IMG/VR virus record: IMGVR_UViG_3300020389_000255
Coordinates: 5,659 to 69,658 of that record
Origin: a virus
Reading direction: 5' to 3' (one strand)
Length of the DNA: 64,000 bases
The notes beneath the pieces are model-generated. The model was not told the DNA's origin and did not search any database. It saw only the letters and a list, made by a program, of their open reading frames with translations. Shown piece after piece: positions 10,801-40,427 of this stretch. The first letter of the stretch is position 1; every line of letters starts with the position of its first letter. The position numbers and the translations under genes were made by a program.

Positions 10801-12008
10801 GTATTACCATCTGGAGCAAAATCTGGCCAAACTCCCCCACCCGCAATATTAATACCATTTTTAGTTACAACACGCAAACCAGATTCTGTATGGACAGAAG
10901 ATCCTCCCCATAAAGAAGTAGTACCATCTAAAAGACTACTAGTTTTATCAGTTCCAATACTTCCACTTAAAGTAAATTCATTTGCTTGTCTAACAACTAC
11001 CTTTTTTCCATCAACAATTTTAGAGCCAGAAGTAATTTTCAATTTAACACTATTATCAATATCATCTTCAACATCAATAGTAAATGGTTCTTCCTCTTGA
11101 CTGACAACATCTGTAACATAATCTTTAGTAGCAATAGAATCTTGATATGAAATTTTATTCTGAACTTTTCCATCAATTATTCTTGCCAATTCAACAAACC
11201 CTTCATTAAGAGTGGCAGAACCAGTGTCCTCGTCAAATTTCTTAGAAGATAACGTTACTGCTAATTTATATCTTTCTGCGCCAGCTGCACTTACATTAGC
11301 ATTAAGATCTCCTAATGTTGGATCTAACAAACTAGCATCTGTAAGTTCATTAACTATTGATTCAGTAACAGTTAATCCTATTTGATAGTTTAAACTAGAT
11401 AAATCAGTATATCCATCATTAATTATTATTATTTGTGAGGCAACTTCTACTGCAAATCCATTAATATAATAAGTACCAGCACCTATATAAGCTAAAACCG
11501 CAGATTTAGTACCATCACCAACAACAGCCAATGTCTCTCCAGTATCATTACCAGATTCATACAATGTATCAGTATTTACAAACCTAGAACCAGTTTTCGG
11601 AATTACATATATACTTTCATAATTCTCGCCAGTGCTAGGAGGTCTTGAAGTAATAATTTTTCCTACTTTTTCTCCACCATCAGTTTGTATATTCATACCA
11701 ATTACATATCTAGCAACTAAAGGATCTATAGAATCAGTATGATAAGTATCAAATAAACCATTTGAAGTTAGTATTATTTGTTGAACATCTGTTAATACAA
11801 TTAATTCCCCAGGAACTAATTGATTTCCACTGTCTAAAGTTGCATTAGTAATATCTTTCAACTGTTCTTGAAGGTTGGTTTGGAGTTGGGTTAATTCTCT
11901 CGCCTGTACAGCAAAACTAGGCCTGAATAATATCCTCCTATAATTATCCCCCTTAACAGTCTCAAAATCGTCATAATACGGAGAAGTGTTAAAATCTAAT
12001 TTTGCCAT
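4839..12008 (-). CDS. DUF4815/VrlC-like large virion structural protein (2389 aa)
   Basis: N-terminus 'FNTSPYYDDF…YRRILFRPSFAVQARELTQLQ' is characteristic of this family in marine T4-like phages; located next to gp8. Confidence 0.85.
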   Translation of the reverse strand: MAKLDFNTSPYYDDFETVKGDNYRRILFRPSFAVQARELTQLQTNLQEQLKDITNATLDSGNQLVPGELIVLTDVQQIILTSNGLFDTYHTDSIDPLVARYVIGMNIQTDGGEKVGKIITSRPPSTGENYESIYVIPKTGSRFVNTDTLYESGNDTGETLAVVGDGTKSAVLAYIGAGTYYINGFAVEVASQIIIINDGYTDLSSLNYQIGLTVTESIVNELTDASLLDPTLGDLNANVSAAGAERYKLAVTLSSKKFDEDTGSATLNEGFVELARIIDGKVQNKISYQDSIATKDYVTDVVSQEEEPFTIDVEDDIDNSVKLKITSGSKIVDGKKVVVRQANEFTLSGSIGTDKTSSLLDGTTSLWGGSSVHTESGLRVVTKNGINIAGGGVWPDFAPDGNTVENNRVVLTKEITEGTYKSIGSARIENITLAENITKIHLDGGDIAEYTDLTPGEFLVQTYNTTAGSGTSGFKAKFLSAVVGNTGNIVLNVQVHFGIINTGANLERESGSIAVPASLISNVGSVVAVGSDGIAVFNNDDYSWLPAQAEFEIGLNDIQFDEIEIAKLTINDRAGTHGATAGDKIELEIAAATASVSAITVEGTVVSQTTTEIVVKDMTGKFIPIKGKYLLDGDANATVDITAVTYEPPINPYTIADVTHLVKYTATNSKRSLTDVICELDTSRLYSVTVSSDEIYPISSEADRTKTREVGEFSNPRLYKIGTSVNDVDGVTITKIRKTFQQPANNDSTNGGWISINLTDDFTFDPVEPVLVWSSSTSAGGFLNPTQYKYDFSNSNKNLEIRQTNDLNLPVIEQTLDFNTSSANPAITTAQKKLSSVLLSTANTFYVVATVTKANGKSATKTLSSNHEYITDQLISGSTEILLSKPDIVSHNFKVYEISKDATFVGNWPDLTPTVGDLPARGFDITDRYTLDTGQDDSYYRQGTLKLKTGEELPGGPIWIAYYYFIHGTGDYYDISSYAHLGQTVEQGIHFPVNVTWKSKFDNKSSAFHHDDIPVYEGKNGITYRLSDCIDSRGVIDSSANPHTGINRSPLTSFGGEIKVEKLGVYPAKNNTLTLESDGIVKLLEGPKDSRVQDFNLADINSTYQESISDGIKLADVKINGYLYDKNSVNVNPVGTDSAQKEIVLKDDVEPVHVFRDSLGGDVDNIEYSVATDGNKIRPSFTKKHITFDNTSLQAKDNTMLASAGTLSNLQKNNLITFPATATKIELENSDTDGSLSIRYAEPGVYYGVMQISPSQYPNKSGRKYTGTKWKSWELEADDTISSKIIKVTVEGLRPICKDITVKFDGKDITAPAHGLSNKVANSYASTNKFQTDEFGKLEFSYRIPNINDGYVTLRLNKDVTESIEVDDIVKQKFIHRIEQSSQDDGGINGWLEQSNEYVVSTGVVEFIQVDSSDDSYIGLKNVTGEFKPTGSDDTYDTNSGLLREDGTTAVGVILDHAEGSAFPCGSKLIEISSSDNTIKAEGYFYGTDKVNTDLSTRSLDHNIPEQGETSLFQEIEILSDCFAQSVDLGFSVIHTIPGDATDYLDLPKVIVQIRKLVNGIPSNKALPFSTVSKTVTAITTVTAGQGWENFAFNDYVYLKKGKYAISISSSSTEFALQTLNVDSGSGTRPLTIGKLYQGNYVNPSDILRFRLQRVHFDNPTNKWVELQSSGDANWGTDDNAYLLLEDSISSTFNDSNFTIKVPGHGFKVGDSIILDGLRGRVETKYTLAASPNASIATDLNLNKIVYSASINTLNPKGITLGDIKGPWGYAIEYDTGTLALTVAMIHGQFKKDEEIAFLIEDSSTNDTLQGVVSSISNSDSNYINGYKVSLLNGDATDIVSKTANTITVGIAMGLYMRREGIAQGTYGATLKENASNQGPAYKNDLYSARVGYITPGDTRVSWLLDSLNSGINVWPNRLVQNLGFSRYREDISLFPTFAHEPGTDYRTSPVIDKEMIDFLAISNIIDSTGTSANYVSKSINTSKPANSLEIILDSSLPGGTGLNVYAKINSPNSVTSDTWIELNPVGVLKIGDAENRFVAKEIGDFTNYQIKVSLKATDSSNVPTIENLRYVSSLQGITTKTLKTSTAKIANVCRYMTTSSHAELGLVSNTGEFLGLLRDTNFVDNGWYEIDVPADFNVEDAAAIVEHVTDKFIVASVTSNEGPISTGASIFAVDTSETGSTTNTVVGWIAGTVFKLTPPAGRVFSTFALMKIDTVDDNGSSGGNILTVSINGDLNIGNGFEANEVFRWGDDHAGYDDRNANQTAASNHATIELYSGTLAASTWSGDKYPQFTITTGVDATFNDQTTLSNQPVSTHVAEAKIKRLADGTLFPTRLGNGVVLQVRLVKDAHIHGVRTRTLNYGNSPATYTSDSAKYPEADVSTLVTLKGR

Positions 12009-13526: not shown

Positions 13527-16500
13527 CTATGTCGTTTCTTGTTTAACATCAGCGGCAATTGTATCCTCAACCACTAAGATTGATTTAGTATGACTATCTG
13601 GTTTACCTGCATATACGTATTTAGGGGTACTTCTAAAACCAACAGGATGTATAGTTTTTTCTAACATATCTTTATAAATTTCTGGAGAAATAGAAGATTC
13701 TAATACATATGAAAAATCGTTATAGACATCTGGATCTCGTAATATTTGTGTTCCATCAGTGAATCCTATATTATCAATTGCACGTGGTTTACTCGTAAAA
13801 ATAGGACTAGTAAGTAATGTTCCAGTTGCAGTTGCAGTTGGATAACCAGTTCCATCATTTCCACCAGGTGCTGATTTTGCTCCAAAAGCAATATCATTTC
13901 CAGTATATCCTAACCCAATATTTTTAACTTCAGTCTTAATAATTGACCCTATTTTACTACTATATGAATATAACTTACACATTTTATCAATTTGATCATT
14001 TGCTGTATTATAAGCATATGCCAGTGGAAAATCACTATATCCATCTCCCTCATCTAACAATTCTATTCCAGTAATCTTATTATTAGCATAACTTTCAATA
14101 ATTGCTTGAGGAACTCTCGGCCCTACTGTTTTAATTTCAGACCCATAACAAGTTGCTACTGGTTTAGCAAATTTCTCATCAGTTGCCCCAGTATAACCTA
14201 GATCACTTTCAATCCATCCTTGATCAGTATTTAAATTTCCATTAGTTCCATTATAAATCATTCCTGCAAGCCAGCCCCCAAGATTATTATGTGCATATGA
14301 TAAATGATATTGTTTACCAATATAATTTTTTCCAACAGATATGTTTTCTGATTTAATCTCTCCTGTCAACCACAATCTCCATTTATTAGTAGAAATATTT
14401 TCAAATTTGACAATATGATATAAAGTTCCCGTACTACCTTCTCTTAAAATAGAAAGTCTATCATAATTGGAAAAAACATCTCCACTCGGCCAATGTGTAC
14501 TGAGAGAAGCTCCATAATTTGTTCCTGAATTCCAGGTTGAATTTATTTCAAATTCTGTTGTTATATCAGCATAAGAAGTTAAACTTCCAGTTTTAGTTGG
14601 AGCAAACCCATATATATCAATATAACGAATAGAAAATCCTATTTTATGAGTAGCACCTATTGAACTTCCCTGATTACTAGCATTACTATCAAGTATAATT
14701 GACTCTACAGGACCAGTAGAAACAGCCGACACAGCTACACTTCCTCCAACACCAGATGCATCCAATTCTGCCGCTTCTTCTCCTACTCGATAACCAATTC
14801 CCCCATTGGTGATAGTTGCACCACTTATAACAGGTTCAACTTTTGCACGTAAAACATTTTCAGAATTACTTATTTTAATATCATTACCATCTTTATCCTG
14901 TGCAGTAATTGTTTCAATTGTACTAAATGCTTCTCCAAAAGGACCTTTTTCTATATCATTACGCAATGACAATTCAGCAGATTCAACTAAAATAATATTA
15001 TCAGTATCAGTTATTTTAATAACTGCATTAGTTGATGATCCATTAAGTCCAATATCTCTCTTATCTTCAATAGTAGGTACCAAATAAACTTCTTCTTTGT
15101 TATCCCCACTGCTTCCAGTATCATCTTCTTTATATCCCACTCCTGGATTATTAATAGCAACACTCGTAACTACACCAGAACTATTAACTACATAATCTAA
15201 AGTCAATCCACTAGCAGTGGTTGAAACTTCACCTGTACTTTCCTTAAAGTAAGTAAGTCCTGCAATACCAGTTGCCTGGATTTTATTAACACGCAACTTT
15301 CTTGAATTACCACCAACTGTTTCTGCTGGTAACGTTGAACTACTACGTATAGTCAATTCATCTCCAACTTTATAATCTTTTCCTATTGCGTTCAAAGTAA
15401 AAGAACTAATTCCACCAGATGAAGTTGTTGTATAATCTACAGTAGCATCTGTTCCAATACCACCATATAAATCTTTAGTAGCGGTAACTGAAGCTAATCC
15501 TGAAACTGCAATACGAGTTCCATTTTGTGGATGTGCAACTTGATAATTTCCAATAGATTTTACTTTAAATCCTATACTATCATCTCCTTCATGGGCAATT
15601 CCATCAAGAGGATCTGTTACAGGAGTTACATTATCATCTACTGCAAATCCAGTTGCTAAATCAGCATTAGAAATATTAGAAACTACAACTGTCTTTTTTG
15701 TATGATCTTGTGAAACAACTTTACCAGTTACTGTCCCAAGATTAATTATACTATCTTGTTCAACCATTTCTATCTTTTTTATTTTCCAATCAGGAATTCC
15801 ACCAAAATCTTCACTAGTAAAACGTTGAAAAAGAGGATCTGTACTCCAGTAACCCACGCCACTAACACTATTAATATCAGATAATATAAGTTTTTTAGGT
15901 CCCCATCCTCTAACAGTTCCAGTTGCAAATTTGTTACCACCTAAATGTTGGGTAACTATTTTATCTATTATATCATCATTTAATGGAGTATCATCAACTG
16001 TATCCTGCAACGTTAATATTAATTCTCCATCACCAGCAACATCATCTAAAGTAACCTCAACTCCTCCCAAAGTATAATTAGAATTATGTAATATATTAAC
16101 TTCCTCGTGAACTTGATAATCTGTTCCAGAAGTACTTGGTGTAAGAGTATCGATATCTATTTCATATACATTTTTATTTCTAGCAACATCATAATCTACG
16201 ACTAATCCACTTCCATTTCCATAAGAAGTTATAACAGCTGTTCCATCTGTAGAATATCCACTTCCAACTCCTCTAGCAGCTAAAACTAAATCAAACAGAT
16301 CTACTACTCCATCTTTATTAATATCACCCACTAAATTTGTTCCAGTTTGAGTAAAAGTAGTAGCAATACTAGTTAATGTTGCCAATCCAGTCACTCCACC
16401 AAAACTATTCACAGAAGTAACAGTAACTATTCCATTATTTCCAGAAACACCAGTAAGAACTGCACCAGATGAAAGACCACCTACCTTATAAGCATCTGCA

Positions 16501-19500
16501 ACATTACTTAAAATATATATTTTATCACCGACCAAATAACCAATTCCAGGATCGGAAGCTGTAGCAGAAACTATTCCACCATCTCCCCTTGTTGTATAAT
16601 CTACAATCAATCCACTACCAGTACCATATGTCGTAGCAGAACCAGTTATAGACCCAGCTGTTGTTATACTTTTAACAACAGAAGTTCCATTAAGACCAGT
16701 TACTTCTTTTAACTGGTAATAAATCTTATTTAAAGTCCAATCAGTCCAATCTAAAGTATCAAGTTCAGTTCCAGCTGCATCCTTTTTATAAAATTTAATA
16801 TTACTACCAACACTAAAACTTCCATCTAAAACTTCAATATTAACCTTAGTATATCCAGAAGCGACTGCCATATTGCTTAATACAGCTGTAAGTGTAGCGG
16901 CACCAGTATTACTCCCACCCGTTACCGTTGGAGCAGAATCATATCCACTTCCAAAATTAGTAATTGTTATAGTATCAATAACTCCTCCATCCACAGTATA
17001 GGTTCCCGTTGCAGGCGTAGTTGGAGACCCACCAGTAAATGTTAAACTTCCTGCATCATATCCTGTACCACCAGCTGCAATAGTAACTGAACGTACAATG
17101 GCAGAACTTGTTGAACTTCCTATAACAAAACGTATATAATCATTTGTTTCTGTTCCTCTTATAATAACTGGATCTCCTTCCTCAAACCAAGAATCTCCAA
17201 CAGAATATAAATTTCCAATTGTTATACTACTTGCAGTATTCAGATCAGTAGTACTTTTTACAATTCCACTAACATACTTATAAATCCCAGTAACAGTACT
17301 AGCAGTTCTAGTTCCTCCAACAGTAGTCGTAACTGTTGCACTAGAACCAGCACCTGTCTCAGTAGTTGTACTTTCACCAGTCGTAGCAGAATATCCAGTA
17401 CCACCTGTAGCACCACCAATCAAATCAAAAGTAACTACAGGACCAGTAGAACCTCCACCACTTATAGTAGCAACCGTTAAAATTGCATTAGTTCCCGCAC
17501 CATTATCATCAACACTAACAGTATCATCAACTGCATATCCACTCCCGCCACTTACAACAGTAGCAGTTAAAATTGTATCTGCTTTCAAATTATTTCCGTC
17601 AATTAATGGTGTTGTAGACGTTGTGCTAAAACTACCATTAACGTCAATCACATACAATTTATTATTTGCTGTATCCCATTTACTAATAATTCCACTTGCC
17701 CTACTCGACGAATCTTCTTGAACAACTTCAGCACCTACTGTAAATTCAGTACTATTACCTTCAGTAACATCTAAAATTGTATACGGTTCAACTTCTACAC
17801 TATCCCCAACATCAAAACCAACACCGGTCAAAGAATGAGCATCATTTGATCCATCTGCTGTAATATCAATTTCAGTACCAGCAATTGCATTAGAACTAGA
17901 AGTAGCTAATTGTAAAATATCATCATCTACTTTTATTACATAATAAGAAACACTTGAAGTCAAACCAGTAATTGCAGAAGCACCACTTCTATACACAACT
18001 AAATTCCCAGTTAAAAATCCATGTGCAGTTATTGTAATCTGATCAGTAGACGGATCAACTGCGGTTGCACCATAAAATAATTTTGTTCCGTTAGCAGTAG
18101 AAATAGTTCCTTGTCCAACAATCGCACTAATACTAGCCACAGTAAGTGTTACCGTTGCATTAGTATAACCAGAAGGATCTTGCAATACAATAGTATCACC
18201 AACAGAAAATCCTACACCAGCAGTAACAGGCGTTGCATTGACAGTTACAACAGATGAACTATCAGTTGTAATAGAAAAAGTTGCTCCAGTTCCATAAAGA
18301 CTAGTAGAATATATAGAAACAGTAGTAGCACTTTGACTTGAATACCAAGTACCAGATGTTGCACCTTGTGTGAAAGTGAGAACTCCAGTATAAATTGGAG
18401 TTGAATCATATTCTTCAACTGTATCAATACGAGTAAAAGGTGTAACAACACCAGGAGTATTTTCTAATAATTCAATCCACATAATTTTTGAAGAAGAATC
18501 CCACGATAAAACCTTTCCACGTTTTGTTTGAATTATTTGAGCTGATTGACCTGGATGTTCTACAATACCACCTATAGTAAACCCAGAAGTGTCAACAGTA
18601 TCTAATACCAATCTTTGTGTTCTTTTATATAAATTAGCATTAGTATCATCATAACCAAGAGTTAGAGCTCTTTCATCTCCATAAAATGCAACTTTACCAT
18701 CCGCAGTTTTACTAGTTACAACATCACTAACATTAGTAGTGCCTTGATAAGCATATATTTCATAACCACTTTCAGCATCATAAGTAATGGGAATATTCCA
18801 AAAATCCTTTTCGGGAGGTATTACTAATTCAGCAGGAACAACTTTTTCACTAGGAGAAAATTCTGGAGGTTTTCCAGAATTCCAATATGCAGTAGCTGTA
18901 TCAGTTGGATCTGAAGTAACAACATGATAGATTGATTTACTACCTACAGTAGTAATAGTTTCTATTTTTCCCATTCCTGATTGAATATTCCAACCAGCAA
19001 ATGAATGTTCTGTCGTTTCATCAAAATTCGCCATAGGTAAAAGTACATCACCTTTTGCCCATCCTGATTGGTTGTTTTCAAATAATTCAATTTTTAAAAT
19101 TCGTTCATAACCACTTCCAACAAAAACAGATTTTAATGTAGAAACTACTCCATTAGAATACCGATTATCATATGATTTTAATAATGAAAGTCCATCTTCT
19201 GCTGGATCCAATGAACCAGGGATTTTATAACCAGTTCCCCCACTACCTAAAAGTACAGTTATAACAGGAGCAGTATCTAAGATTTTAATATTAGATTCAT
19301 GGTCACTATTTAAAACATATGCCCTAGCACCAGTTTGACGTCCAACTACATACGTACCAGCAAATTCAGAAAAATTAGCAAGTTTAGATGGTTCAATACT
19401 AGAATCAATTTCTTGAATACGCATCCTAGTTTCAATGTGATATTTATTAGAAGATAATTTAAATATCTCTTTAGCAGGTTCTACAAATTTTGCAGTAACA

Positions 19501-19964
19501 TTATACGCAAATCTAAATAGTATGTCATAACTTAATGCAGTTCCTTTTGATCTATTAAGTAAATTTGCAATCTTTAAAAGTCTATCTCTATCTCCAAGTA
19601 AATCCCCAGTATATCCATATAAAAATTCATTATATAAATTATACTTCAAATCATCCTTTATCAAATCAACATCTCTATATCCAGTAAGACGCATTAATTC
19701 TCCATGCAATCCTGGAACAGATTCATTCACAAATTCTCCAATCATACTAGACTGAGAAATTCCAATACTATTATTTGATTTATCAGCAAGTGTTGCCAAT
19801 ACATTTTGTTCTAAAAATTCATAATATACTTCTAAAAATCTTGTAAAAAGAGTTCTATCAGTTTTTCCCGATAAAGGTTTTTCAAAATCTAGATGTATTG
19901 TCGCTGGTAATTGAGAATAAATGAATTGTGATATAGTACGTGAAATTTTATCTTGATAATTCAT
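13527..19964 (-). CDS. gp7: Baseplate wedge initiator, gp7-like, expanded with GxGY repeats (2145 aa)
   Basis: 'FTRFLEVYYEFLE', 'SKGTALSYDILFR', C-terminal 'YNDFSYVLESS…IHPVGF'; lies between gp6 and gp8. Confidence 0.75.
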   Translation of the reverse strand: MNYQDKISRTISQFIYSQLPATIHLDFEKPLSGKTDRTLFTRFLEVYYEFLEQNVLATLADKSNNSIGISQSSMIGEFVNESVPGLHGELMRLTGYRDVDLIKDDLKYNLYNEFLYGYTGDLLGDRDRLLKIANLLNRSKGTALSYDILFRFAYNVTAKFVEPAKEIFKLSSNKYHIETRMRIQEIDSSIEPSKLANFSEFAGTYVVGRQTGARAYVLNSDHESNIKILDTAPVITVLLGSGGTGYKIPGSLDPAEDGLSLLKSYDNRYSNGVVSTLKSVFVGSGYERILKIELFENNQSGWAKGDVLLPMANFDETTEHSFAGWNIQSGMGKIETITTVGSKSIYHVVTSDPTDTATAYWNSGKPPEFSPSEKVVPAELVIPPEKDFWNIPITYDAESGYEIYAYQGTTNVSDVVTSKTADGKVAFYGDERALTLGYDDTNANLYKRTQRLVLDTVDTSGFTIGGIVEHPGQSAQIIQTKRGKVLSWDSSSKIMWIELLENTPGVVTPFTRIDTVEEYDSTPIYTGVLTFTQGATSGTWYSSQSATTVSIYSTSLYGTGATFSITTDSSSVVTVNATPVTAGVGFSVGDTIVLQDPSGYTNATVTLTVASISAIVGQGTISTANGTKLFYGATAVDPSTDQITITAHGFLTGNLVVYRSGASAITGLTSSVSYYVIKVDDDILQLATSSSNAIAGTEIDITADGSNDAHSLTGVGFDVGDSVEVEPYTILDVTEGNSTEFTVGAEVVQEDSSSRASGIISKWDTANNKLYVIDVNGSFSTTSTTPLIDGNNLKADTILTATVVSGGSGYAVDDTVSVDDNGAGTNAILTVATISGGGSTGPVVTFDLIGGATGGTGYSATTGESTTTETGAGSSATVTTTVGGTRTASTVTGIYKYVSGIVKSTTDLNTASSITIGNLYSVGDSWFEEGDPVIIRGTETNDYIRFVIGSSTSSAIVRSVTIAAGGTGYDAGSLTFTGGSPTTPATGTYTVDGGVIDTITITNFGSGYDSAPTVTGGSNTGAATLTAVLSNMAVASGYTKVNIEVLDGSFSVGSNIKFYKKDAAGTELDTLDWTDWTLNKIYYQLKEVTGLNGTSVVKSITTAGSITGSATTYGTGSGLIVDYTTRGDGGIVSATASDPGIGYLVGDKIYILSNVADAYKVGGLSSGAVLTGVSGNNGIVTVTSVNSFGGVTGLATLTSIATTFTQTGTNLVGDINKDGVVDLFDLVLAARGVGSGYSTDGTAVITSYGNGSGLVVDYDVARNKNVYEIDIDTLTPSTSGTDYQVHEEVNILHNSNYTLGGVEVTLDDVAGDGELILTLQDTVDDTPLNDDIIDKIVTQHLGGNKFATGTVRGWGPKKLILSDINSVSGVGYWSTDPLFQRFTSEDFGGIPDWKIKKIEMVEQDSIINLGTVTGKVVSQDHTKKTVVVSNISNADLATGFAVDDNVTPVTDPLDGIAHEGDDSIGFKVKSIGNYQVAHPQNGTRIAVSGLASVTATKDLYGGIGTDATVDYTTTSSGGISSFTLNAIGKDYKVGDELTIRSSSTLPAETVGGNSRKLRVNKIQATGIAGLTYFKESTGEVSTTASGLTLDYVVNSSGVVTSVAINNPGVGYKEDDTGSSGDNKEEVYLVPTIEDKRDIGLNGSSTNAVIKITDTDNIILVESAELSLRNDIEKGPFGEAFSTIETITAQDKDGNDIKISNSENVLRAKVEPVISGATITNGGIGYRVGEEAAELDASGVGGSVAVSAVSTGPVESIILDSNASNQGSSIGATHKIGFSIRYIDIYGFAPTKTGSLTSYADITTEFEINSTWNSGTNYGASLSTHWPSGDVFSNYDRLSILREGSTGTLYHIVKFENISTNKWRLWLTGEIKSENISVGKNYIGKQYHLSYAHNNLGGWLAGMIYNGTNGNLNTDQGWIESDLGYTGATDEKFAKPVATCYGSEIKTVGPRVPQAIIESYANNKITGIELLDEGDGYSDFPLAYAYNTANDQIDKMCKLYSYSSKIGSIIKTEVKNIGLGYTGNDIAFGAKSAPGGNDGTGYPTATATGTLLTSPIFTSKPRAIDNIGFTDGTQILRDPDVYNDFSYVLESSISPEIYKDMLEKTIHPVGFRSTPKYVYAGKPDSHTKSILVVEDTIAADVKQETT

Positions 19965-34677: not shown

Positions 34678-35559
34678 CTACTCACCTGCTAATTTTTTAA
34701 AGTATGACAAAGTTTCTTCTTCAGATCCTTCCTCATAAGTTGACTCAACTGAAATTTCTGGTTCAGCCGCATCAACTGATTCTTCAACTGCCTCAAATTT
34801 AACACGATCCGAATCTGCCTCAAAACCTAAAACACGTTCCATCTTTGTTTTAAGTTCATCAAACGTTTTAAATTGATCTGGCGCAACCAATTCTTGCAAT
34901 GAATACTGCTTATTATACAATTCTTCCAATTTTGCATCATCACCATCAAGAATTGCAGCGGTAGCATCAAATTCTGACCTATCATAATTAACAAACCCAT
35001 CAACAGTACGAATTTTAAGTTTAAAATCAGCACCTTCCCAATAATCAAATGGATTCATTGGAGTTTCATCTTGAAATTCTGGGTTCATTGTATCATTAAT
35101 TTTATCAAATATCCTCTTTCCATAACGATAAATAAAATTCTTACCTTCATTATCAGGATTTGCTGGATCTTTAATTACCATAATATTAGATACATAATTC
35201 AGACGCCGTTTCTGCTTACGTGCTTGTTCTTTGCCTGCCTCTGTACCATTATTCCAAAGACCAGTATTAAATTCACTAACAGGATCTTTCTGATTCAAAG
35301 TTGTGAGTGAATTCTCAATATACCAACCACCAGGACCTTGAAAACCATGTGAAAAAATACGAACCCATGGTAAATCTTCTCCTTCAGTCTGTGGTAGGAA
35401 ACGAATCACAGCATAACCATTACCAGACTTATCACGTTCTGGTTTCCAATAACGATCATCGATATAACTAACCGTTTGTTGTTGGGTTTTTTCTAATTCT
35501 GCGGTGAGATTAGCAATTGTTGCATTACGATTTTGCTTTAAACTTGCAAAAGATGACAT
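34678..35559 (-). CDS. gp32: Single-stranded DNA-binding protein gp32
   Basis: 'DDRYWKPERDKSGNGYAVIRFLP…HGFQGPGGWYIENSLTT', 'NPFDYWEGADFKLK', acidic tail. Confidence 0.96.
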   Translation of the reverse strand: MSSFASLKQNRNATIANLTAELEKTQQQTVSYIDDRYWKPERDKSGNGYAVIRFLPQTEGEDLPWVRIFSHGFQGPGGWYIENSLTTLNQKDPVSEFNTGLWNNGTEAGKEQARKQKRRLNYVSNIMVIKDPANPDNEGKNFIYRYGKRIFDKINDTMNPEFQDETPMNPFDYWEGADFKLKIRTVDGFVNYDRSEFDATAAILDGDDAKLEELYNKQYSLQELVAPDQFKTFDELKTKMERVLGFEADSDRVKFEAVEESVDAAEPEISVESTYEEGSEEETLSYFKKLAGE

Positions 35560-35632: not shown

Positions 35633-35661
35633 ATTATAACATATTTTTCAGGCAATGTCAA
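35633..35661 (-). promoter_or_regulatory. Sigma70-like early promoter for gp32
   Basis: TTGACA-N17-TATAAT with TGn extension. Confidence 0.8.
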
Positions 35662-36235
35662 GCCTATTTTTAATAATTTCCTTATATTTTTTAATATCGA
35701 CACTAAGGAAACTCTTATACTTCTCACAGACTATTCGATTTGCTGGCCATTGATACTCGTCCAACTCCTCATCAAACTGTGGGAAAAAATTTAATATCAT
35801 ATCCATAATGATAAATGTTTCGGGTGAAATAATACCCTGATAAAACAATTTTAATATTGTTGGATCTGCATCTTTCAACCTAAACAATTCATCAAAATGA
35901 CTAACATTATCTAACATAACATCCAATTCCTGTTGGAAATTGTATGTCATACTCTGCATACGGTTCTTCCAAGCAACGAAAATATCATCACCTGTATTTA
36001 CCATATCTTCTAATCTTTTGTTTCCAGAAACAAAATTAGAAACAAAAAACGGTAATAACTGTCCTTCTTTATATCGTTTATTAAACGTTTCAAAGTAACG
36101 AGGAAAACCTCGTCGACCATAAAACTTCTCGGACGATTGTACACGGACACCACCATTGTAACGAAAATAATCGTATCCAGGTTGTTCAAAATGTTGCTTA
36201 ATGCCCATGTACAATTTATAAGTTTTATAACTCAT
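35648..36235 (-). CDS. gp59: Helicase loader gp59
   Basis: 'YKLYMGIKQHF…YDYFRYNG', 'ISPETFII', 'KYKSFL'; gene order gp33-gp59-gp32. Confidence 0.88.
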   Translation of the reverse strand: MSYKTYKLYMGIKQHFEQPGYDYFRYNGGVRVQSSEKFYGRRGFPRYFETFNKRYKEGQLLPFFVSNFVSGNKRLEDMVNTGDDIFVAWKNRMQSMTYNFQQELDVMLDNVSHFDELFRLKDADPTILKLFYQGIISPETFIIMDMILNFFPQFDEELDEYQWPANRIVCEKYKSFLSVDIKKYKEIIKNRLDIA

Positions 36236-36486
36236 AAAGGCAAAGATCCTGTTCTTGGTAAAAAGTTAAATTTAACTGCCTCTGCCTCGACTTTATCTTT
36301 CAATGATTTACTCAATAACTTAGGCACAATATCAGTATCAATATTATGTTTGACACAATAATCTAATATTGCATCCATGTAACCGAGTCCTTCATCTCTA
36401 ACCAAATCACAAATAGCATCAGAAAATTTTCTTGGATTGTGTAAGTTTGTTATTTCCAAGAATTCTTCTTCAGTCAATTTCGCCAT
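36232..36486 (-). CDS. gp33: Late transcription co-activator gp33
   Basis: 'YMDAILDYC…KLLSKSLKDKVEAEAVKFNFLPRT…LPL'. Confidence 0.9.
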   Translation of the reverse strand: MAKLTEEEFLEITNLHNPRKFSDAICDLVRDEGLGYMDAILDYCVKHNIDTDIVPKLLSKSLKDKVEAEAVKFNFLPRTGSLPL

Positions 36487-36502: not shown

Positions 36503-37366
36503 TTAATGATTTTGTAAAAGTTGGAATATAGTTTGTGACAAGGATTGTGCTTGTGCCATCATTGCCAATGCTGTTTGTTGTTTAATTTGATTCACTGACA
36601 TATCAGTGATTTCTCTCGCCTCATCCAATGCAGTTAAACTATTTCGATTGTTTTCTGTTTGCAAGACCATGCCTTCCAAGTTAGTTATAGTAAAATCAAA
36701 CCTACGGATAGTTGCACCAATTCGTGCTTGATGTTCAATCAATTGGTTAAGTGCAGCGTCTAACGTTTCAACTGCATCAAGTGATTTTGATGTATCATCA
36801 ACTGAACTATCAGAAACAGCAAATAACGTGGGAGTTCCAGCGACCTCTTTAGTCTTTCCCAATACATCAGCAGATGCATCACCCAATGATATATTAATTC
36901 TTTGATCTGGATCGTCATTAATTCCAATTGCAACTATCTTATTAGTAAAATCACCACCTAACAATTCAATACCATTGTATTTGGTTGTAGCAACCACAAA
37001 CTCAGCTTCTTCCAATAGTTGATTATATTCAGCAGAAAGAATCACTCGTTCTTCTTGTGAAGTAGAATCATTTGAAGATTCGACACCAATTTCTCTCAGA
37101 CGTTCAACAATAGTCCTGACTTGTGCCATTCCAGTATCAGCAGTAATAAGCAAATCTTGAGAATTCTTGACATTCCGATTTGCTTGTTCTAATGCAACTA
37201 TCTTATTGGTCATTCGGACGACACTTGCCGAAGCGACACTATCATCAGAAAAATTCGGAATCCGTGAACCACTAGAAATCTTCTCTACATTCTTCTCAAT
37301 ATCAGCTGTTGCTTTTTTGTAATTGTTGTATGCGTTGAGCATTGCACGTTGTAAACCTTGAATCAT
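36503..37366 (-). CDS. fliC: Flagellin (short, D0/D1-type), divergent
   Basis: Flagellin_N: 'EKISSGSRI…DD…LEQANRNVKNSQDLLITAD…VERLREIGVESSN…ER…EYNQL…TKYNGIELLGG'. Flagellin_C: 'ARIGATIRRF…ITNL…QIKQQTALAMMAQA…IFQLL'. AGGAG RBS. Confidence 0.92.
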   Translation of the reverse strand: MIQGLQRAMLNAYNNYKKATADIEKNVEKISSGSRIPNFSDDSVASASVVRMTNKIVALEQANRNVKNSQDLLITADTGMAQVRTIVERLREIGVESSNDSTSQEERVILSAEYNQLLEEAEFVVATTKYNGIELLGGDFTNKIVAIGINDDPDQRINISLGDASADVLGKTKEVAGTPTLFAVSDSSVDDTSKSLDAVETLDAALNQLIEHQARIGATIRRFDFTITNLEGMVLQTENNRNSLTALDEAREITDMSVNQIKQQTALAMMAQAQSLSQTIFQLLQNH

Positions 37367-37394
37367 TTGTTACTCCTATAAAAAAAGTGTATAC

Positions 37395-37595
37395 TTATAT
37401 ATCGTCACATTTCGGAAAAACTTTAGCCTTTTCTTCAAATATTCCACAAGTATATGTATTTCTATCTGGTATGGTAAACAAGCTTCCATCTTTACAAGTT
37501 TTTGTACATTTCGCATTATGTTTCCATTCATTATTAATATACTCATGCACATGTGGAACTATATGCTTACAATTTTTACAAACTTTCTCCATCAC
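37395..37595 (-). CDS. Small Cys-rich, putative Zn-binding protein
   Basis: 'CKNCKH…C..TC…TC..F'. Confidence 0.55.
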   Translation of the reverse strand: MMEKVCKNCKHIVPHVHEYINNEWKHNAKCTKTCKDGSLFTIPDRNTYTCGIFEEKAKVFPKCDDI

Positions 37596-37912
37596 TTAAT
37601 ACTCCATATAGGCAATTCTGAAAACCATTTTTTTACTCGTCTCCAAAATGTTATTTTTTTCATCGGTTCTTCCTTTTCAACAAACTCCCATGTAATCTTT
37701 GCACCAGGGATTACCTTAATAGATTTCTTCTCCATCTAATTAGGTCCTTTAACAGGAGTATTCAACCAATCTTTTATACGTTGCCATCGTGTTTTAGGTC
37801 GTTTAACTCCTGAAAGATTCTCAGAAATTGTTCTTTTTTTACCTAAACGTTTTCCTGTATTAATATCAAGCAACCCATCCCTAATAACTTTAGTTACTGC
37901 TCCATGGTGCAT
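37592..37912 (-). CDS. Two small basic ORFs (37736-37912, 58 aa; 37592-37735, 47 aa)
   Basis: Translated by hand; GGAGG RBS before 37912; both carry a 'W.R(I/V)K.W' motif. Confidence 0.5.
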
Positions 37913-38009
37913 TTTATTCCTCCTACAAGTCGTGGTGACTACTTATGTCATATCGGTGAGTCACCTGAACCTTTCCTATATCTGCTTGGGCCATATAGAC
38001 TCTTGGAAA

Positions 38010-38244
38010 TATAGTAGGGGTTTCTGTTGACAGGTACCCCATAGACCCCGGCATTACCTATTAGGCAGCCATTTGTAATTCATAATCGTTTCCAATTATT
38101 AGTTTGCAACTTCTGAGATGTTGCCACTCCAAATAACCTACTCTCCATCATCGTCATACCTGTCGAATCCGTTACGCCCCCATTATGGTGGAGGCGGTGG
38201 GAGTTGAACCCACGTCCAGTGTATCGACAACTTCGTATCATCGG
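38010..38244 (-). ncRNA. ssrA: Circularly permuted (two-piece) tmRNA
   Basis: Acceptor piece ends GACGTGGGTTCAACTCCCACCGCCTCCACCA (CCA end at 38186). After a 4-nt spacer TAAT, the coding piece starts GGGGGCGTAACGGATTCGAC (38181). Acceptor stem has G3-U70. Tag frame 38093-38061 reads GNDYELQMAA-TAA-TAG after ATAATT. Outer ends approximate. Confidence 0.92.
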
Positions 38245-38736
38245 TTAAAAGTCCTTAAGATGTTTTTCTAGACTTGATTGTGTTTCACTACCTTCAAAAC
38301 CAACTCTAACTGAAGGTGAATCTTCAGATTTAAATTCAGGATTTTCCTTTTCTAATTTTTCTAATTCCTTCATCTTCATATCATAATCATAATCAGAAAT
38401 TTCTACATTATCTGGATCTGTATAATATAAATTTTCGTGATATTCTAAATAATTTCTCAACGTAGCAATATCATCTTCTGGATCATTCGTAGGAATCCAT
38501 GTTACCATTGTCGATTTTTCTCCGACATCTACAATACGAGTTCTCCAATCTATGACATTCTCATCAGGTAGGTTATTGGGTTCAGATTGTCTCAATTCGG
38601 TAATGAACGCATTCCAATATTCTCGACCCTTTTCTTCGACAATCCATCTATTCCCAATCAAAGATTCATCTTCAACTTGATCTGGAAATCTATTATAAAC
38701 TTTATACATCATTGATTTATAACTATCAACACTCAT
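38245..38736 (-). CDS. Protein with a stand-alone NAD-dependent DNA ligase domain Ia
   Basis: 'LRNYLEYHENLYYTDPDNVEISDYDYDMKMKELEKLEKENPEFKSEDSPSVRVG' matches the LigA N-terminal subdomain; no KxDG catalytic domain. Confidence 0.8.
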   Translation of the reverse strand: MSVDSYKSMMYKVYNRFPDQVEDESLIGNRWIVEEKGREYWNAFITELRQSEPNNLPDENVIDWRTRIVDVGEKSTMVTWIPTNDPEDDIATLRNYLEYHENLYYTDPDNVEISDYDYDMKMKELEKLEKENPEFKSEDSPSVRVGFEGSETQSSLEKHLKDF

Positions 38737-38768
38737 TATTCAGTTCCTTCTCAATTGTTTTATACTAT

Positions 38769-38812
38769 AGTATAACATATTTCTGGCCAATTGTCAAGAG
38801 GAAAGCCATTTT
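38769..38812 (-). promoter_or_regulatory. Sigma70-like early promoter cassette
   Basis: TTGACA-N17-TATACT with upstream AAAATGGCTTT box. Confidence 0.8.
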
Positions 38813-39224
38813 ATTCCCCTCTTGTAACAATTAAAATTCGTTTAATTTGCTCTTCCACAACTTGCTTCCGATTTGGCCAATGTATATATGGATTATTCTC
38901 TGAATCTTTTGATAAATTCATGAGTAATGGAATCACCAATTTTTCTAATGTTTTAAATTTTTCTTGATTTCCCACCGTCAATTCCAACTCCTTTTCTTCA
39001 AGGCGAATATCATATTTTTTCTGTGCTACACCTAACACCTCTTCAAGTTTATTTTCTATTTGTTCCAATTTCTGTGATACATTTTCTGAACTAACAGAAA
39101 CTTGTTCTAATTTTTCCGTTTGTATTTTTGATTGATCTACTTGATCACTACTGACAGACTTAATTCCAAAATCAACATTAGTATCAAAATCAAAATCATC
39201 AAAATTGAAATCTTTAATATCCAT
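38811..39224 (-). CDS. Conserved-type T4-like phage hypothetical protein (coiled coil)
   Basis: 'DFGIKSV…LEKLVIPLLMNLSK…YIHWPNR'. Confidence 0.6.
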   Translation of the reverse strand: MDIKDFNFDDFDFDTNVDFGIKSVSSDQVDQSKIQTEKLEQVSVSSENVSQKLEQIENKLEEVLGVAQKKYDIRLEEKELELTVGNQEKFKTLEKLVIPLLMNLSKDSENNPYIHWPNRKQVVEEQIKRILIVTRGE

Positions 39225-39894
39225 ATGAATTCCTTTGGTAAAAATGTTTGATTTGTTTTAATAAGGAGTTTGTCCAATTATCTCTATGTTCTACAAATAT
39301 TTGAGGTTTCTTATCTGTAGGTGCAATAATAACAACCAATTGAGTAATAGGAAGATCAGTCCTTTCTTCCCACATAATTGAATATGCACACGACTGCATA
39401 AAATAATCAGGAATCCATTCTTTCTTTTTTTCTTTCCGTGAAGTTTTAAAATCTATAATAGATAATCTTCCGTCAAATTCTGCAACACAATCTACTCTCC
39501 CAGCAAGTTTCAAATGATCTGACCACAAAGGAACTTCTTGCGAATGTATATTGTCAATATACCTATCTAATACCGGTTGCATAGTCCGAAATGATTCAAT
39601 CGCTAAAGGGTTTGAAAATTTACCTTCAAATGAATTATTCAAATATTCTTCTACGAGTTTATGTACAGCAGTTCCTTTTGCCGATGCCTTTGTAGAAATC
39701 TTATTTGCTTCCTTTACTCCAACCTTTTTACGCCAATCGTTCAACCCTTTAACTTTAGACGGAAGACTTCCAGTAACAGTAGTCACAGAAGGATATTTTT
39801 TATCACCCACCACATAATGACGTTTTTTGTTTATAGTCTCAGTTATCAACTCAACAAATTCATAACTACCGACATGATTAAAATTTTTCATCAT
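39214..39894 (-). CDS. PD-(D/E)XK exonuclease (Cas4/RecB-like)
   Basis: 'YPSVTTV', 'GTAVH', 'AGRVDC…IIDFKTS', 'QSCAY'. Confidence 0.88.
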   Translation of the reverse strand: MMKNFNHVGSYEFVELITETINKKRHYVVGDKKYPSVTTVTGSLPSKVKGLNDWRKKVGVKEANKISTKASAKGTAVHKLVEEYLNNSFEGKFSNPLAIESFRTMQPVLDRYIDNIHSQEVPLWSDHLKLAGRVDCVAEFDGRLSIIDFKTSRKEKKKEWIPDYFMQSCAYSIMWEERTDLPITQLVVIIAPTDKKPQIFVEHRDNWTNSLLKQIKHFYQRNSYGY

Positions 39895-40427
39895 TTTAAA
39901 TTAAAACACCGTCGGATCCATCCTCGAATAAACTTCACTTGACTAGTCCGTTGTGTATATTTAGATCCATCAAACACTAAATTCCAATAAAATCCAGAAC
40001 GTTCAACTTTTAATTCCCAATCTTGTAATGTTGCACACGCTTTAATTGTATTAGGACCAATCCCACCATCAACGTCAATTTTATTTTCTGGTTTGCGTTT
40101 ATTGTTACATGCTTGTTGCAAAATCTTAACCGCCCCACCTTGTCCATGATTCACAACCATATCAAAATAAGTTTCCCGCACTTCGGCAGGAAGTTGTTCT
40201 GCCTTTGAAGGCAACCAATACATTTCATAATAAATTTCTTCCGCCTCTTCCTGTGTCATATTTTTAATATCATCTACAGTACATTTTTCTTCACGAAATG
40301 TCTCATAGACTTTTTGTGTTACACCCCAATTAGTCGCACCTCCACGGTCATCTGGGTCATCTACAAACCCACCTTCATGTCCCAGCACAACTGCAATAAT
40401 ATCTTCAAATTTTGTTAATTTCGCCAT
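39891..40427 (-). CDS. Glycoside hydrolase family 108 lysozyme/endolysin with PG-binding domain
   Basis: 'HEGGFVDDPDDRGGATNWGVT', 'FDMVVNHG', 'VDGGIGPNT', 'FIRGWIRR'. Confidence 0.92.
   Translation of the reverse strand: MAKLTKFEDIIAVVLGHEGGFVDDPDDRGGATNWGVTQKVYETFREEKCTVDDIKNMTQEEAEEIYYEMYWLPSKAEQLPAEVRETYFDMVVNHGQGGAVKILQQACNNKRKPENKIDVDGGIGPNTIKACATLQDWELKVERSGFYWNLVFDGSKYTQRTSQVKFIRGWIRRCFNLK

What the first reader, a model, noticed from the sequence alone, without database searches (positions are those of the whole stretch)
38010..38244. Phage-encoded circularly permuted (two-piece) tmRNA with a 4-nt intervening segment
Seen: the tRNA-like 3' half (T-arm GTGGG-TTCAACT-CCCAC, acceptor CGCCTCC-A-CCA) comes before the 5' half (GGGGGCG…GATTCGAC), separated only by TAAT. 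The G3-U70 alanyl determinant is intact. Cross-piece pairing is possible (GTATGACGAT with GTTGTCGATAC). The tag ORF GNDYELQMAA** ends in the ClpXP-type AA, followed by GGGGT…ACCCC pairing. Known: permuted tmRNAs occur in Alphaproteobacteria, some marine cyanobacteria and some Betaproteobacteria, and the phage tmRNAs I know of are mostly one-piece. Inference: the phage supplies its own compact ribosome-rescue RNA, perhaps to resist host RNase toxins or to change tagging. The Gly resume codon, short tag and minimal spacer may mark an independent permutation lineage. No smpB is present in the window.
Basis: partly seen in the sequence, partly recalled or inferred. Interest (0 to 1): 0.88.

Follow-up and report, generated by a model that had tools for sequence, protein, structure and literature searches.

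The report
Phage-borne two-piece tmRNA, known kind
A marine T4-like phage carries a genuine, conserved "two-piece" ribosome-rescue RNA gene, but such genes, at this same genomic spot and with similarly tiny spacers, are already known, so it is a new member of a known kind.

Summary
On the minus strand at ~38242-37990 lies a circularly permuted tmRNA gene: ARAGORN tmRNA*, tag GNDYELQMAA**; Rfam tmRNA_permuted 102.1 bits against a cut-off of 47. The acceptor piece ends in CCA at 38186, the spacer is TAAT, and the coding piece starts at 38181.

It is phage-borne. T4-like genes flank it on both sides, and no integrase or host flank was found.

It is not a new kind. Buchholz et al. 2022 (passages read) already report many two-piece tmRNAs in marine phages. 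The cultured pelagimyophage Mosig has an annotated SsrA at the same position: GH108, nuclease, small ORF, SsrA, gp33, then gp59 further on.

The 4-nt spacer is not special. 23 of 74 viral junctions have 3-5 nt spacers. 4 nt is the commonest length among short-spacer cellular junctions, 60 of 76, mostly Accumulibacter/Rhodocyclaceae titles.

Eight copies in this phage lineage share Gly-resume tags ending in MAA and show compensatory stem changes. The gene is therefore under selection and is not a recent capture: the nearest fetched cellular gene is ~67% identical.

An independent permutation lineage is not supported. Processing, charging and tagging remain inferred.

The parts
38769..38797 (-). 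Sigma-70-type promoter-like site TTGACA-17-TATACT with TG before the -10, upstream of the small ORF and the tmRNA
   Evidence: 11 of 12 consensus positions, the best of 12 sites found in 37300-39300 (shuffles average 9.1 sites, so a consensus match only). No T4 late-promoter motif TATAAATA in 37300-39300 on either strand.
38245..38736 (-). 163-aa ORF whose stop codon ends 2 nt before the tmRNA start; probably co-transcribed with it
   Evidence: weak match to the N-terminal Ia domain of NAD-dependent DNA ligase (phrog_3869 E 2.4e-09; Pfam Nlig-Ia 26.7 bits, just under its cut-off of 27). A homologous ORF precedes the tmRNA in L209. An ORF of similar size occupies that position in L048 (homology not tested).
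38186..38242 (-). Acceptor piece (3' half of the tRNA-like domain): P2 5' strands, T-arm GTGGG-TTCAACT-CCCAC, CGCCTCC-ACCA
   Evidence: (RF04321 starts at 38242). The 5' end is taken from the model and is not mapped.
38182..38185 (-). Intervening spacer TAAT, predicted to be removed on maturation
   Evidence: Lineage variants are TAT, TTAT and TATAT.
37990..38181 (-). Coding piece: GGGGGCG acceptor 5' strand, P2 3' strands, PK1-like stem (GCAAC 38124..38120 with GTTGC 38110..38106), tag frame, 3' stem GGGGT/ACCCC with inner CTG..CAG hairpin
   Evidence: The 3' end is uncertain: the alpha model ends at 38013, the beta model at 37987, and ARAGORN at 37970.
38058..38093 (-). Tag reading frame: resume codon GGA (Gly), N D Y E L Q M A A, then TAA TAG
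   Evidence: (coding part 188-223 of the gene), alignment.
37934..37965 (-). Conserved hairpin GGTGACT...AGTCACC just 3' of the tmRNA and 5' of the next small ORF's ribosome-binding site; possible 3' boundary or processing element
   Evidence: L154/L155 have GGTGGCT...AGCCAC, a change on both sides seen by eye. There is no T-run, so the terminator scan did not call it.
36232..36486 (-). gp33-like late-transcription regulator, followed by gp59 (35648-36235) and gp32 (34678-35559): the conserved module downstream of the tmRNA locus
   Evidence: phrog_254, E 1.5e-16; gp59, gp32. Same order as in Mosig and L214.

Best explanation
This is a functional, phage-encoded, circularly permuted ssrA gene. 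It is the positional counterpart of the SsrA already annotated in marine pelagimyophages.

Shown here: the gene anatomy, its phage context, its conservation and its covariation.

Inferred mechanism:
- It is transcribed early from the sigma-70-like promoter at 38797-38769, together with the upstream 163-aa ORF.
- RNase P cuts 5' of G38181, which frees the coding piece.
- The acceptor piece is left with CCA plus a 4-nt trailer, which host 3' processing enzymes trim.
- The two RNAs stay joined by the 7-bp acceptor stem and about 13 bp of P2.
- Host AlaRS charges the RNA through G3-U70.
- With host SmpB and EF-Tu it enters stalled ribosomes. Translation resumes on GGA and adds (A)GNDYELQMAA, and the ribosome is released at TAA TAG.
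- The likely benefit to the phage is keeping ribosomes free while host and phage mRNAs are being cleaved during infection.
- The fate of the tagged proteins is not known.
For: Identity:
- ARAGORN tmRNA*.
- RF04321 102.1 bits against a cut-off of 47; alpha_tmRNA 63 against 50.

Fold:
- My explicit 43-pair structure is 93.5% paired across 5 lineage sequences, against 41-51% when the 3' partners are slid by 1-3 columns.
- 5 pairs change on both sides: 2 in the T-arm, 1 in the acceptor stem, 2 in the 3' stem.
- G3-U70 is kept in 5 of 5 sequences.
- RNAcofold of the two predicted pieces independently recovers the T-arm plus 20 intermolecular pairs, 7 acceptor and 13 P2.

Phage context:
- gp32, gp59, gp33, PD-(D/E)XK exonuclease, GH108 endolysin, CobS/CobT-like proteins, baseplate gp5/gp6/wedge and a tail tube-like protein.
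- No integrase.
- The record's first 10.5 kb is one open giant ORF, so there is no host flank at that end.

Conservation:
- Eight copies (six distinct) sit in syntenic viral contigs. All have 3-5 nt A/T-only spacers and 10-residue Gly...MAA tags.
- Of 3 loci with gp59 at least 84% identical, 2 cover the position and both have the gene.

Synteny with a cultured phage:
- Mosig EXVC030M has GH108, PD-(D/E)XK, a hypothetical ORF, SsrA, gp33 and, further on, gp59. Its SsrA is permuted, with the Gly-resume tag GEDNFALAA.

Expression, weak:
- Contigs from RNA-type libraries of 3 studies cover relatives of 37968-38256.

Literature:
- The Himeno 2014 review passage (PMC3985003) describes two-piece tmRNA with PK1 and PK2 and probable RNase P/tRNase Z processing.
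Against: - No experiment shows processing, charging or tagging. The public RNA data available here are contigs, which cannot show RNA ends, and the libraries may contain DNA.
- No smpB is in the record, so function depends on a host SmpB accepting this RNA. The host is unknown, and the record is ~31% complete.
- The cofold energy is only z = -1.42 against shuffled acceptor pieces, so thermodynamics alone is not convincing.
- The covariation rests on only 5 related sequences, 2 of them truncated, and I derived the structure from these same sequences.
- The outer P2 helix (73% of cells paired) and the PK1-like stem (84%) are less well supported on the MAFFT alignment.
- The gene scores below the beta_tmRNA cut-off (63.4 against 84) and only just above the alpha one.
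Confidence: 0.8

Rival explanations
1. Decoy or inhibitor: the RNA mainly titrates host SmpB, EF-Tu or AlaRS to block host trans-translation. A TLD-only tmRNA-like molecule (as in mycobacteriophage DS6A) has been reported to do this. On this reading it does not rescue ribosomes for the phage.
For: - No phage smpB was found in the record.
- Hudson et al. 2014 (PMC4131195, passages read) note that a molecule similar to the TLD-only DS6A sequence strongly inhibits tmRNA, perhaps by titrating SmpB.
- The RNA is divergent from the clade-specific cellular models.
Against: - Unlike DS6A, it keeps a complete tag frame with stop codons.
- All 8 lineage copies have a 10-residue tag starting with Gly and ending in MAA, across RNAs only 70-80% identical.
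- The PK1-like stem and the 3' stem are also retained.
- A decoy would not need any of these.
Confidence: 0.08
2. Neutral passenger: a captured cellular ssrA that is not used and is decaying.
For: - Scores against the clade-specific models are low: 63 bits here against 222 for an Accumulibacter gene.
- ARAGORN misses the copy in L209.
Against: - Compensatory changes keep the stems, and G3-U70 is invariant.
- The tag frame is intact in all 8 copies.
- The locus is retained in distant T4-like phages: L214/L215 with gp59 36% identical, and Mosig.
- No near-identical cellular donor was found among the 76 cellular junction hits from the species-representative genome collection. The best is 67% over 175 nt.
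Confidence: 0.06
3. Host gene at a prophage boundary, or an attP-type ssrA fragment used for integration. The record is labelled 'provirus', and ssrA is a classic integration site.
For: - IMG/VR classes the record as a provirus.
- Papers read in passages state that tmRNA genes are frequent integration sites.
Against: - The gene lies about 38 kb and 26 kb from the window ends, with T4-like phage genes on both sides.
- It is complete, not a 3' fragment.
- No integrase was found in the record (control rings in 14 of 14 genomes).
- The same phage neighbours recur in six other viral contigs and in a cultured lytic-type myophage.
Confidence: 0.02

Closest known systems
SsrA of Pelagibacter phage Mosig EXVC030M (MT647606.1) and the two-piece ssrA of OM43 phage Melnitz and related pelagimyophages (Buchholz et al. 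2022, PMC9004378)
   Same: - Permuted tmRNA in a marine T4-like myophage.
- Same gene order as Mosig: GH108, PD-(D/E)XK nuclease, small ORF, SsrA, gp33, then gp59 further on.
- Gly resume codon and a tag ending in AA.
- Downstream of an early-type promoter (here; stated for Melnitz in the passages).
- No smpB in this record; the neighbourhoods of the relatives were not scanned for it.
   Different: - The spacer is 4 nt here and 43 nt (a hairpin) in Mosig.
- Sequence similarity to Mosig is limited to 41 nt of the T-arm/acceptor region at 87.8%.
- The T-loop here is TTCAACT; Mosig has TGCAACT.
- No glnA riboswitch is detected here, whereas Melnitz is reported to have one in the 3' domain.
- A flagellin-like gene and three small ORFs are inserted between the tmRNA and gp33.
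- gp32 is closest, at about 60%, to cyanomyovirus gp32.
Betaproteobacterial two-piece tmRNA (Rfam RF01850; Accumulibacter, Dechloromonas, Azonexus)
   Same: - Canonical T-loop.
- 4-nt spacer: 60 of 76 short-spacer cellular junctions.
- Best clan model for this gene and for all 7 viral copies tested.
- Nearest fetched cellular sequences: 67% over 175 nt.
- Some Accumulibacter tags also end in MAA.
   Different: - Scores 63.4 bits, below the family cut-off of 84, while an Accumulibacter gene scores 222.4.
- Tag GNDYELQMAA with Gly resume, against ANDERFALAA with Ala resume.
- A/T-only spacer, against CTGC, CTGG and the like.
- Low-GC phage context.
Alphaproteobacterial two-piece tmRNA (Rfam RF01849; Caulobacter type)
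   Same: - Passes the family cut-off (63 against 50) with an end-to-end alignment.
- The 3'-terminal ACCUG-CAACAGAA-CCCC element aligns strongly.
- Mosig's syntenic gene is best matched by this model, at 67.6 bits.
   Different: - 22 of 22 parsed alpha-type cellular genes have a non-canonical T-loop (mostly GGCGGTA or GGCAGTA). 21 of those 22 have spacers of 22-49 nt.
- This gene has TTCAACT and a 4-nt spacer.

Membership tests
Permuted (two-piece) tmRNA, Rfam RF04321 | Score at or above the family's gathering threshold over the full model | tested here: met
   102.1 bits against 47, model positions 1-213 of 213, E 9.4e-19.
Permuted (two-piece) tmRNA, Rfam RF04321 | Gene order permuted: T-arm, 3' acceptor strand and CCA lie upstream of the 5' acceptor strand and the tag frame | tested here: met
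   (ARAGORN tmRNA*).
Permuted (two-piece) tmRNA, Rfam RF04321 | tRNA-like domain: 5-bp T-arm, 7-bp acceptor stem, G3-U70, encoded CCA | tested here: met
   All 12 pairs are standard in all 5 lineage sequences, 3 pairs show compensatory changes, and G-U is kept 5 of 5.
Permuted (two-piece) tmRNA, Rfam RF04321 | Tag reading frame with resume codon, hydrophobic ...AA end and stop codon | tested here: met
   GNDYELQMAA**; intact in all 8 lineage copies.
Permuted (two-piece) tmRNA, Rfam RF04321 | Pseudoknots PK1 and PK2 flanking the tag region (Himeno 2014 review passage) | tested here: inconclusive
   The GCAAC/GTTGC stem before the tag and the GGGGT/ACCCC stem with an inner hairpin after it are present. 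The second strand of each pseudoknot was not established, and L154 is shifted by one column in the alignment.
Permuted (two-piece) tmRNA, Rfam RF04321 | Precursor is cut into two stable RNAs that stay base-paired | not testable with these tools
   Only contigs of RNA-type runs were available, and these cannot show ends. The cofold predicts 20 intermolecular pairs.
Permuted (two-piece) tmRNA, Rfam RF04321 | Alanylation, SmpB binding and trans-translation activity | not testable with these tools
No SmpB is in the record.
Betaproteobacterial tmRNA, Rfam RF01850 | Score at or above the gathering threshold (84 bits) | tested here: not met
   63.4 bits. L154 scores 80.1 and L048 50.9, while Accumulibacter scores 222.4.
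Alphaproteobacterial tmRNA, Rfam RF01849 | Score at or above the gathering threshold (50 bits) | tested here: met
   63 bits, model positions 1-355 of 355.
Alphaproteobacterial tmRNA, Rfam RF01849 | Alpha-type non-canonical T-loop (mostly GGCGGTA or GGCAGTA), as seen in the sampled cellular members | tested here: not met
   The window has TTCAACT. 22 of 22 parsed alpha-type genes have the non-canonical loop. This feature is my own reading of the sample, not a curated criterion.
Pelagimyophage/Melnitz-type phage ssrA locus | Permuted ssrA upstream of the gp33 late-transcription coactivator in a marine T4-like myophage | tested here: met
   The 84-aa ORF is gp33-like. The gene order matches Mosig and the description of Melnitz (passages). 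Here four ORFs lie between the tmRNA and gp33.
Pelagimyophage/Melnitz-type phage ssrA locus | Glutamine (glnA) riboswitch in the 3' domain, as reported for Melnitz | tested here: not met
   No glnA RNA match at gathering thresholds in the window, nor at E up to 1 in 37300-38900.

The most novel reading that the evidence does not exclude
The window's gene belongs to a phage-restricted tmRNA clade. This clade has been inherited vertically at one conserved locus (upstream of gp33-gp59-gp32) in marine T4-like phages, long enough to diverge below the cut-offs of the clade-specific cellular models. It has its own signature: a Gly resume codon, 10-residue tags ending in (Q/P)MAA, and 3-5 nt A/T-only spacers. 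This would mean a trans-translation RNA tuned by the phage, for example with a changed tag fate or a minimal single-cut maturation, and not simply a borrowed host gene.
Probability: 0.35. Interest if true: 0.5.

Novelty: new member of a known kind. Interest (0 to 1): 0.27.

Why it matters
It adds a well-defined sub-lineage to the known set of phage-borne two-piece tmRNAs: 8 copies with a shared tag signature and shared synteny. It shows that the ssrA site next to gp33-gp59-gp32 is shared between pelagimyophages and a more cyanophage-like marine myovirus. It also shows that the spacer in positionally equivalent phage genes ranges from 3 to 96 nt. The short-spacer forms are handy natural substrates for asking how little spacer RNase P and 3' trimming need to mature a permuted tmRNA. 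It opens no new question. What phage tmRNAs do during infection remains unknown, and this locus does not make that more testable than the cultured Melnitz/Mosig systems already do.

Tried and rejected
- blastn of 501 bases around the gene against 50,697 phage records found nothing at E 1e-5. A relaxed search with 107 bases (E up to 1) gave Mosig SsrA as the only meaningful hit. The other rows listed lie over tRNA genes or unannotated sequence, at E of 0.08 or worse.
- glnA riboswitch: not found.
- SmpB, integrase and SspB: no match in the record. The record is a fragment, so this does not show that the phage lacks them.
- BLAST of the tmRNA against three cellular genomes hit only the T-arm/acceptor region.
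- L156 was a chance match to the 18-nt motif and not a tmRNA.
- ARAGORN missed the L209 copy, which Rfam then found.
- My first junction regex assumed a canonical T-loop and so failed on alpha-type genes. I redid it, where 4 of 27 ARAGORN-called genes still could not be parsed.
- The Pf16 paper turned out to report no tmRNA.
- L214's locus matched no named phage beyond short gp59 pieces.
- Sharkady and Williams 2004 (PMC516066) is not held. I could not check whether the 4-nt beta spacer is described there.
- Supplementary tables of Buchholz 2022 (the list of two-piece phage tmRNAs) and of the 2025 tmRNA database paper were not seen. They may already list members of this lineage.
- RNA-run contigs leave the flanks of the tmRNA uncovered.
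- Cofold z-score of -1.42: not significant on its own.
- The metagenome-contig scan, protein homology searches and structure tools were not used.

Full report
**1. What is there**

On the minus strand the window reads:
- an acceptor piece starting about 38242;
- the T-arm GTGGG-TTCAACT-CCCAC (38213..38197);
- CGCCTCC-ACCA ending at 38186;
- four bases, TAAT (38185..38182);
- the coding piece from G38181 (GGGGGCG...GATTCGAC...), carrying the frame GGA AAC GAT TAT GAA TTA CAA ATG GCT GCC TAA TAG at 38093..38058;
- a GGGGT/ACCCC stem (38040..38036 with 38021..38017) around a small CTG..CAG hairpin.

ARAGORN reports exactly one RNA gene in the 64-kb window, a permuted tmRNA at 37970..38280 with tag GNDYELQMAA**. 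At Rfam's curated thresholds the window has two matches, both here: tmRNA_permuted RF04321 at 102.1 bits (cut-off 47, E 9.4e-19, full model) and alpha_tmRNA RF01849 at 63 bits (cut-off 50).

**2. Is it phage DNA?**

The record is a 69,658-base IMG/VR entry labelled 'provirus', with a CheckV completeness of 31%. That label raised the rival that this is a host ssrA at an integration site. The context speaks against it.

Neighbours on the same strand:
- GH108 endolysin, 39891-40427
- PD-(D/E)XK exonuclease, 39214-39894
- two small ORFs
- the tmRNA
- three small ORFs and a flagellin-like ORF
- gp33-like regulator, 36232-36486
- gp59, 35648-36235
- gp32, 34678-35559

Further out are CobS/CobT-like proteins, baseplate gp5/gp6/wedge proteins, a tail tube-like protein, giant DUF4815-type proteins, another exonuclease and an HNH protein.

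No integrase was found. The record's first 10.5 kb is one open giant ORF that continues from the window. The best gp32 matches, at about 60% identity, are marine cyanomyoviruses. The gene is therefore about 38 kb and 26 kb inside phage sequence.

**3. Is it maintained?**

I ran two pattern scans of IMG/VR. One used the T-arm/acceptor junction with a 0-30 nt gap. The other used an 18-nt lineage motif. A gp59-based locus search added more.

Together these gave seven further copies of the same RNA lineage:

| Copy | Relation to the window's gene | Spacer | Tag |
|---|---|---|---|
| L030 | 95.5% identical over the 245 nt present | TATAT | GNSYELQMAA |
| L154, L155 | same tag as the window | TTAT | GNDYELQMAA |
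| L035 | 81.9% identical over 166 nt (copy cut at the contig end) | TTAT | GEYNQLPMAA |
| L048, L053 | about 80% identical | TAT | GEYNQLPMAA |
| L209 | about 70% identical; RF04321 76.3 bits; missed by ARAGORN | TATAT | GNSINLPMAA |

Where contigs are long enough, an ORF of similar size lies just upstream (L048 by size; L209 by similarity). The flagellin-like ORF, gp33, gp59 and gp32 follow downstream in the same order.

I wrote an explicit 43-pair structure on an alignment of the five distinct alignable sequences:
- 93.5% of cells are paired, against 41-51% with the partners slid by 1-3 columns.
- Five pairs change on both sides: 2 in the T-arm, 1 in the acceptor stem, 2 in the 3' stem.
- G3-U70 never varies.

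Caveats: there are only five related sequences, two of them truncated, and I drew the structure from them.

RNAcofold of the two predicted mature pieces independently returns the T-arm, the 7-bp acceptor stem and 13 bp of P2, which is 20 intermolecular pairs. The energy is only z = -1.42 against shuffled acceptor pieces.

**4. Is it new?**

No.
- Buchholz et al. [quoted passage not shown]
- They also report 53 ARAGORN-called two-piece forms among the 133 unique tmRNA structures of 402 tmRNA-carrying phages, 50 of them from marine or aquatic phages. Permuted tmRNA occurs in 17 of 47 Melnitz/pelagimyophage-like contigs.
- A relaxed BLAST of the window's T-arm/acceptor segment found the annotated SsrA of the cultured Pelagibacter phage Mosig EXVC030M.
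- Mosig's locus reads GH108, PD-(D/E)XK nuclease, hypothetical ORF, SsrA, late-promoter accessory protein (gp33), thyX, hypothetical ORF, gp59-like. That is the same order as in the window.
- Mosig's gene is permuted, has the tag GEDNFALAA (Gly resume) and a 43-nt hairpin spacer, and is best matched by alpha_tmRNA at 67.6 bits.
- More distant phages, L214 and L215 (gp59 36% identical), carry a permuted tmRNA with a 96-nt spacer upstream of gp33-gp59-gp32.

**5. Is the 4-nt spacer special?**

No.
- Viral contigs. 74 junctions match the canonical-T-loop pattern with a 0-30 nt gap. Of these, 5 have 3 nt, 13 have 4 nt and 5 have 5 nt (23 of 74), and 4 nt is the commonest length. ARAGORN calls a permuted tmRNA in 65 of the 74.
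- Cellular genomes. The same pattern with a 0-8 nt gap was run on the species-representative genome collection and gave 76 loci. Of these, 60 have exactly 4 nt, almost all titled Accumulibacter, Rhodocyclaceae, Azonexus or Dechloromonas, with tags such as ANDERFALAA.
- Other beta-type genes have long spacers: L198 has 30 nt and L008 has 29 nt.
- Of 22 parsed alpha-type cellular genes, 21 have spacers of 22-49 nt and one has 5 nt.

Both scans required a canonical T-loop, so alpha-type genes were not sampled by them.

**6. Which lineage?**

This is unresolved, but the gene does not look independent.
- It aligns end to end with both the alpha model (63.0 bits, passes) and the beta model (63.4 bits, below 84).
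- Beta is the best clan model for all 7 viral copies tested.
- It has a canonical T-loop like the beta genes, and unlike the 22 sampled alpha genes.
- Its 3' element matches the alpha consensus well.
- Its positional counterpart in Mosig scores as alpha.

The nearest cellular sequences I fetched are Azonexus/Dechloromonas-type genes at 67% identity over 175 nt. Further beta-type genes from a sample of 151 genomes of that order (4 over the cut-off) and the non-Rhodocyclaceae hits are no closer. The sub-threshold row of the unpublished genome G178 supports no claim here. A simple recent capture from a sequenced species is therefore not supported, and neither is a separate permutation event.

**7. 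How it most likely works (inferred)**

- A near-consensus sigma-70-type promoter (TTGACA-17-TATACT with TG) lies at 38797-38769, upstream of the 163-aa ORF whose stop codon is 2 nt before the tmRNA. No T4 late-promoter motif is nearby. This suggests early co-transcription, as proposed for Melnitz.
- By analogy with the two-piece tmRNAs described in the Himeno 2014 review passage, RNase P would cut before G38181. That single cut leaves the acceptor piece with CCA plus TAAT, to be trimmed by 3' processing enzymes.
- Host AlaRS, SmpB and EF-Tu would then supply the rest. No smpB or sspB was found in this fragment.
- A conserved hairpin at 37934-37965, with a two-sided change in L154, may mark the 3' boundary.

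**8. Expression**

The stretch occurs in marine and seawater metagenomes. Six runs hold at least half of its sampled words, two of which may be the source of this DNA. Contigs from four RNA-type libraries of three studies cover relatives (90-99% alike) of 37968-38256, and one contig (38150-38256) bridges the junction. Contigs cannot show RNA ends or rule out DNA, so this is only a weak hint of transcription.

**9. Verdict**

This is a correct and careful observation of a real phage-borne two-piece tmRNA. It is a new member, and a recognisable sub-lineage, of a kind already described in marine T4-like phages. Neither its small spacer nor its Gly resume codon sets it apart.

Noticed in passing
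window 36503-37366 (-); also L048 3685-4542 and L030 1576-2439: A 287-aa flagellin-like ORF lies between the tmRNA and gp33: Pfam Flagellin_N 84.8 bits and Flagellin_C 51.9 bits. ORFs of matching size (285 and 287 aa) lie at the same place in two related viral contigs, and L209 has a similar ORF there. tblastn against 50,697 phage records hits only 4 records, the best at 33.6% identity. A minimal flagellin in a marine T4-like phage is odd and remains unexplained.
   Followed up: partly
window 1-4839, 4839-12008 and 13527-19964 (-): Three giant ORFs sit next to the baseplate genes. The first is open at the window start and runs at least 3,500 aa to the start of the record. The other two are 2,389 aa (N-terminal DUF4815) and 2,145 aa with no Pfam match. 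They are presumably baseplate or fibre proteins.
   Followed up: partly
window 37934-37965 (-): A conserved hairpin, GGTGACT...AGTCACC, lies between the tmRNA 3' region and the ribosome-binding site of the next small ORF. L154/L155 carry GGTGGCT...AGCCAC, a change on both sides. It has no T-run.
   Followed up: partly
L035 4234-4474 (-): This lineage copy has a 28-nt insertion directly after the tag stop codon, absent from the other four aligned copies.
   Followed up: no
viral loci L017, L027/L059/L070, L029, L034, L048/L053, L209: Many short-spacer viral permuted tmRNAs from otherwise dissimilar RNAs share tags ending in ...LPMAA, for example DEQYALPMAA, AVPFELPMAA and AKDEPFALPMAA. I did not find a cellular group with this ending among the loci fetched.
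   Followed up: no
L027 14-1187 (-): In this viral contig five tRNA genes lie next to the permuted tmRNA. In some phages the tmRNA is therefore part of a tRNA cluster, unlike in the window, where ARAGORN finds no tRNA.
   Followed up: no
window 37395-37595 (-): A 66-aa Cys-rich small ORF (CxxC...C...C pattern), one of three tandem small ORFs downstream of the tmRNA, with no PHROG match.
   Followed up: no
Short spacers therefore also arise within the alpha lineage.
   Followed up: no
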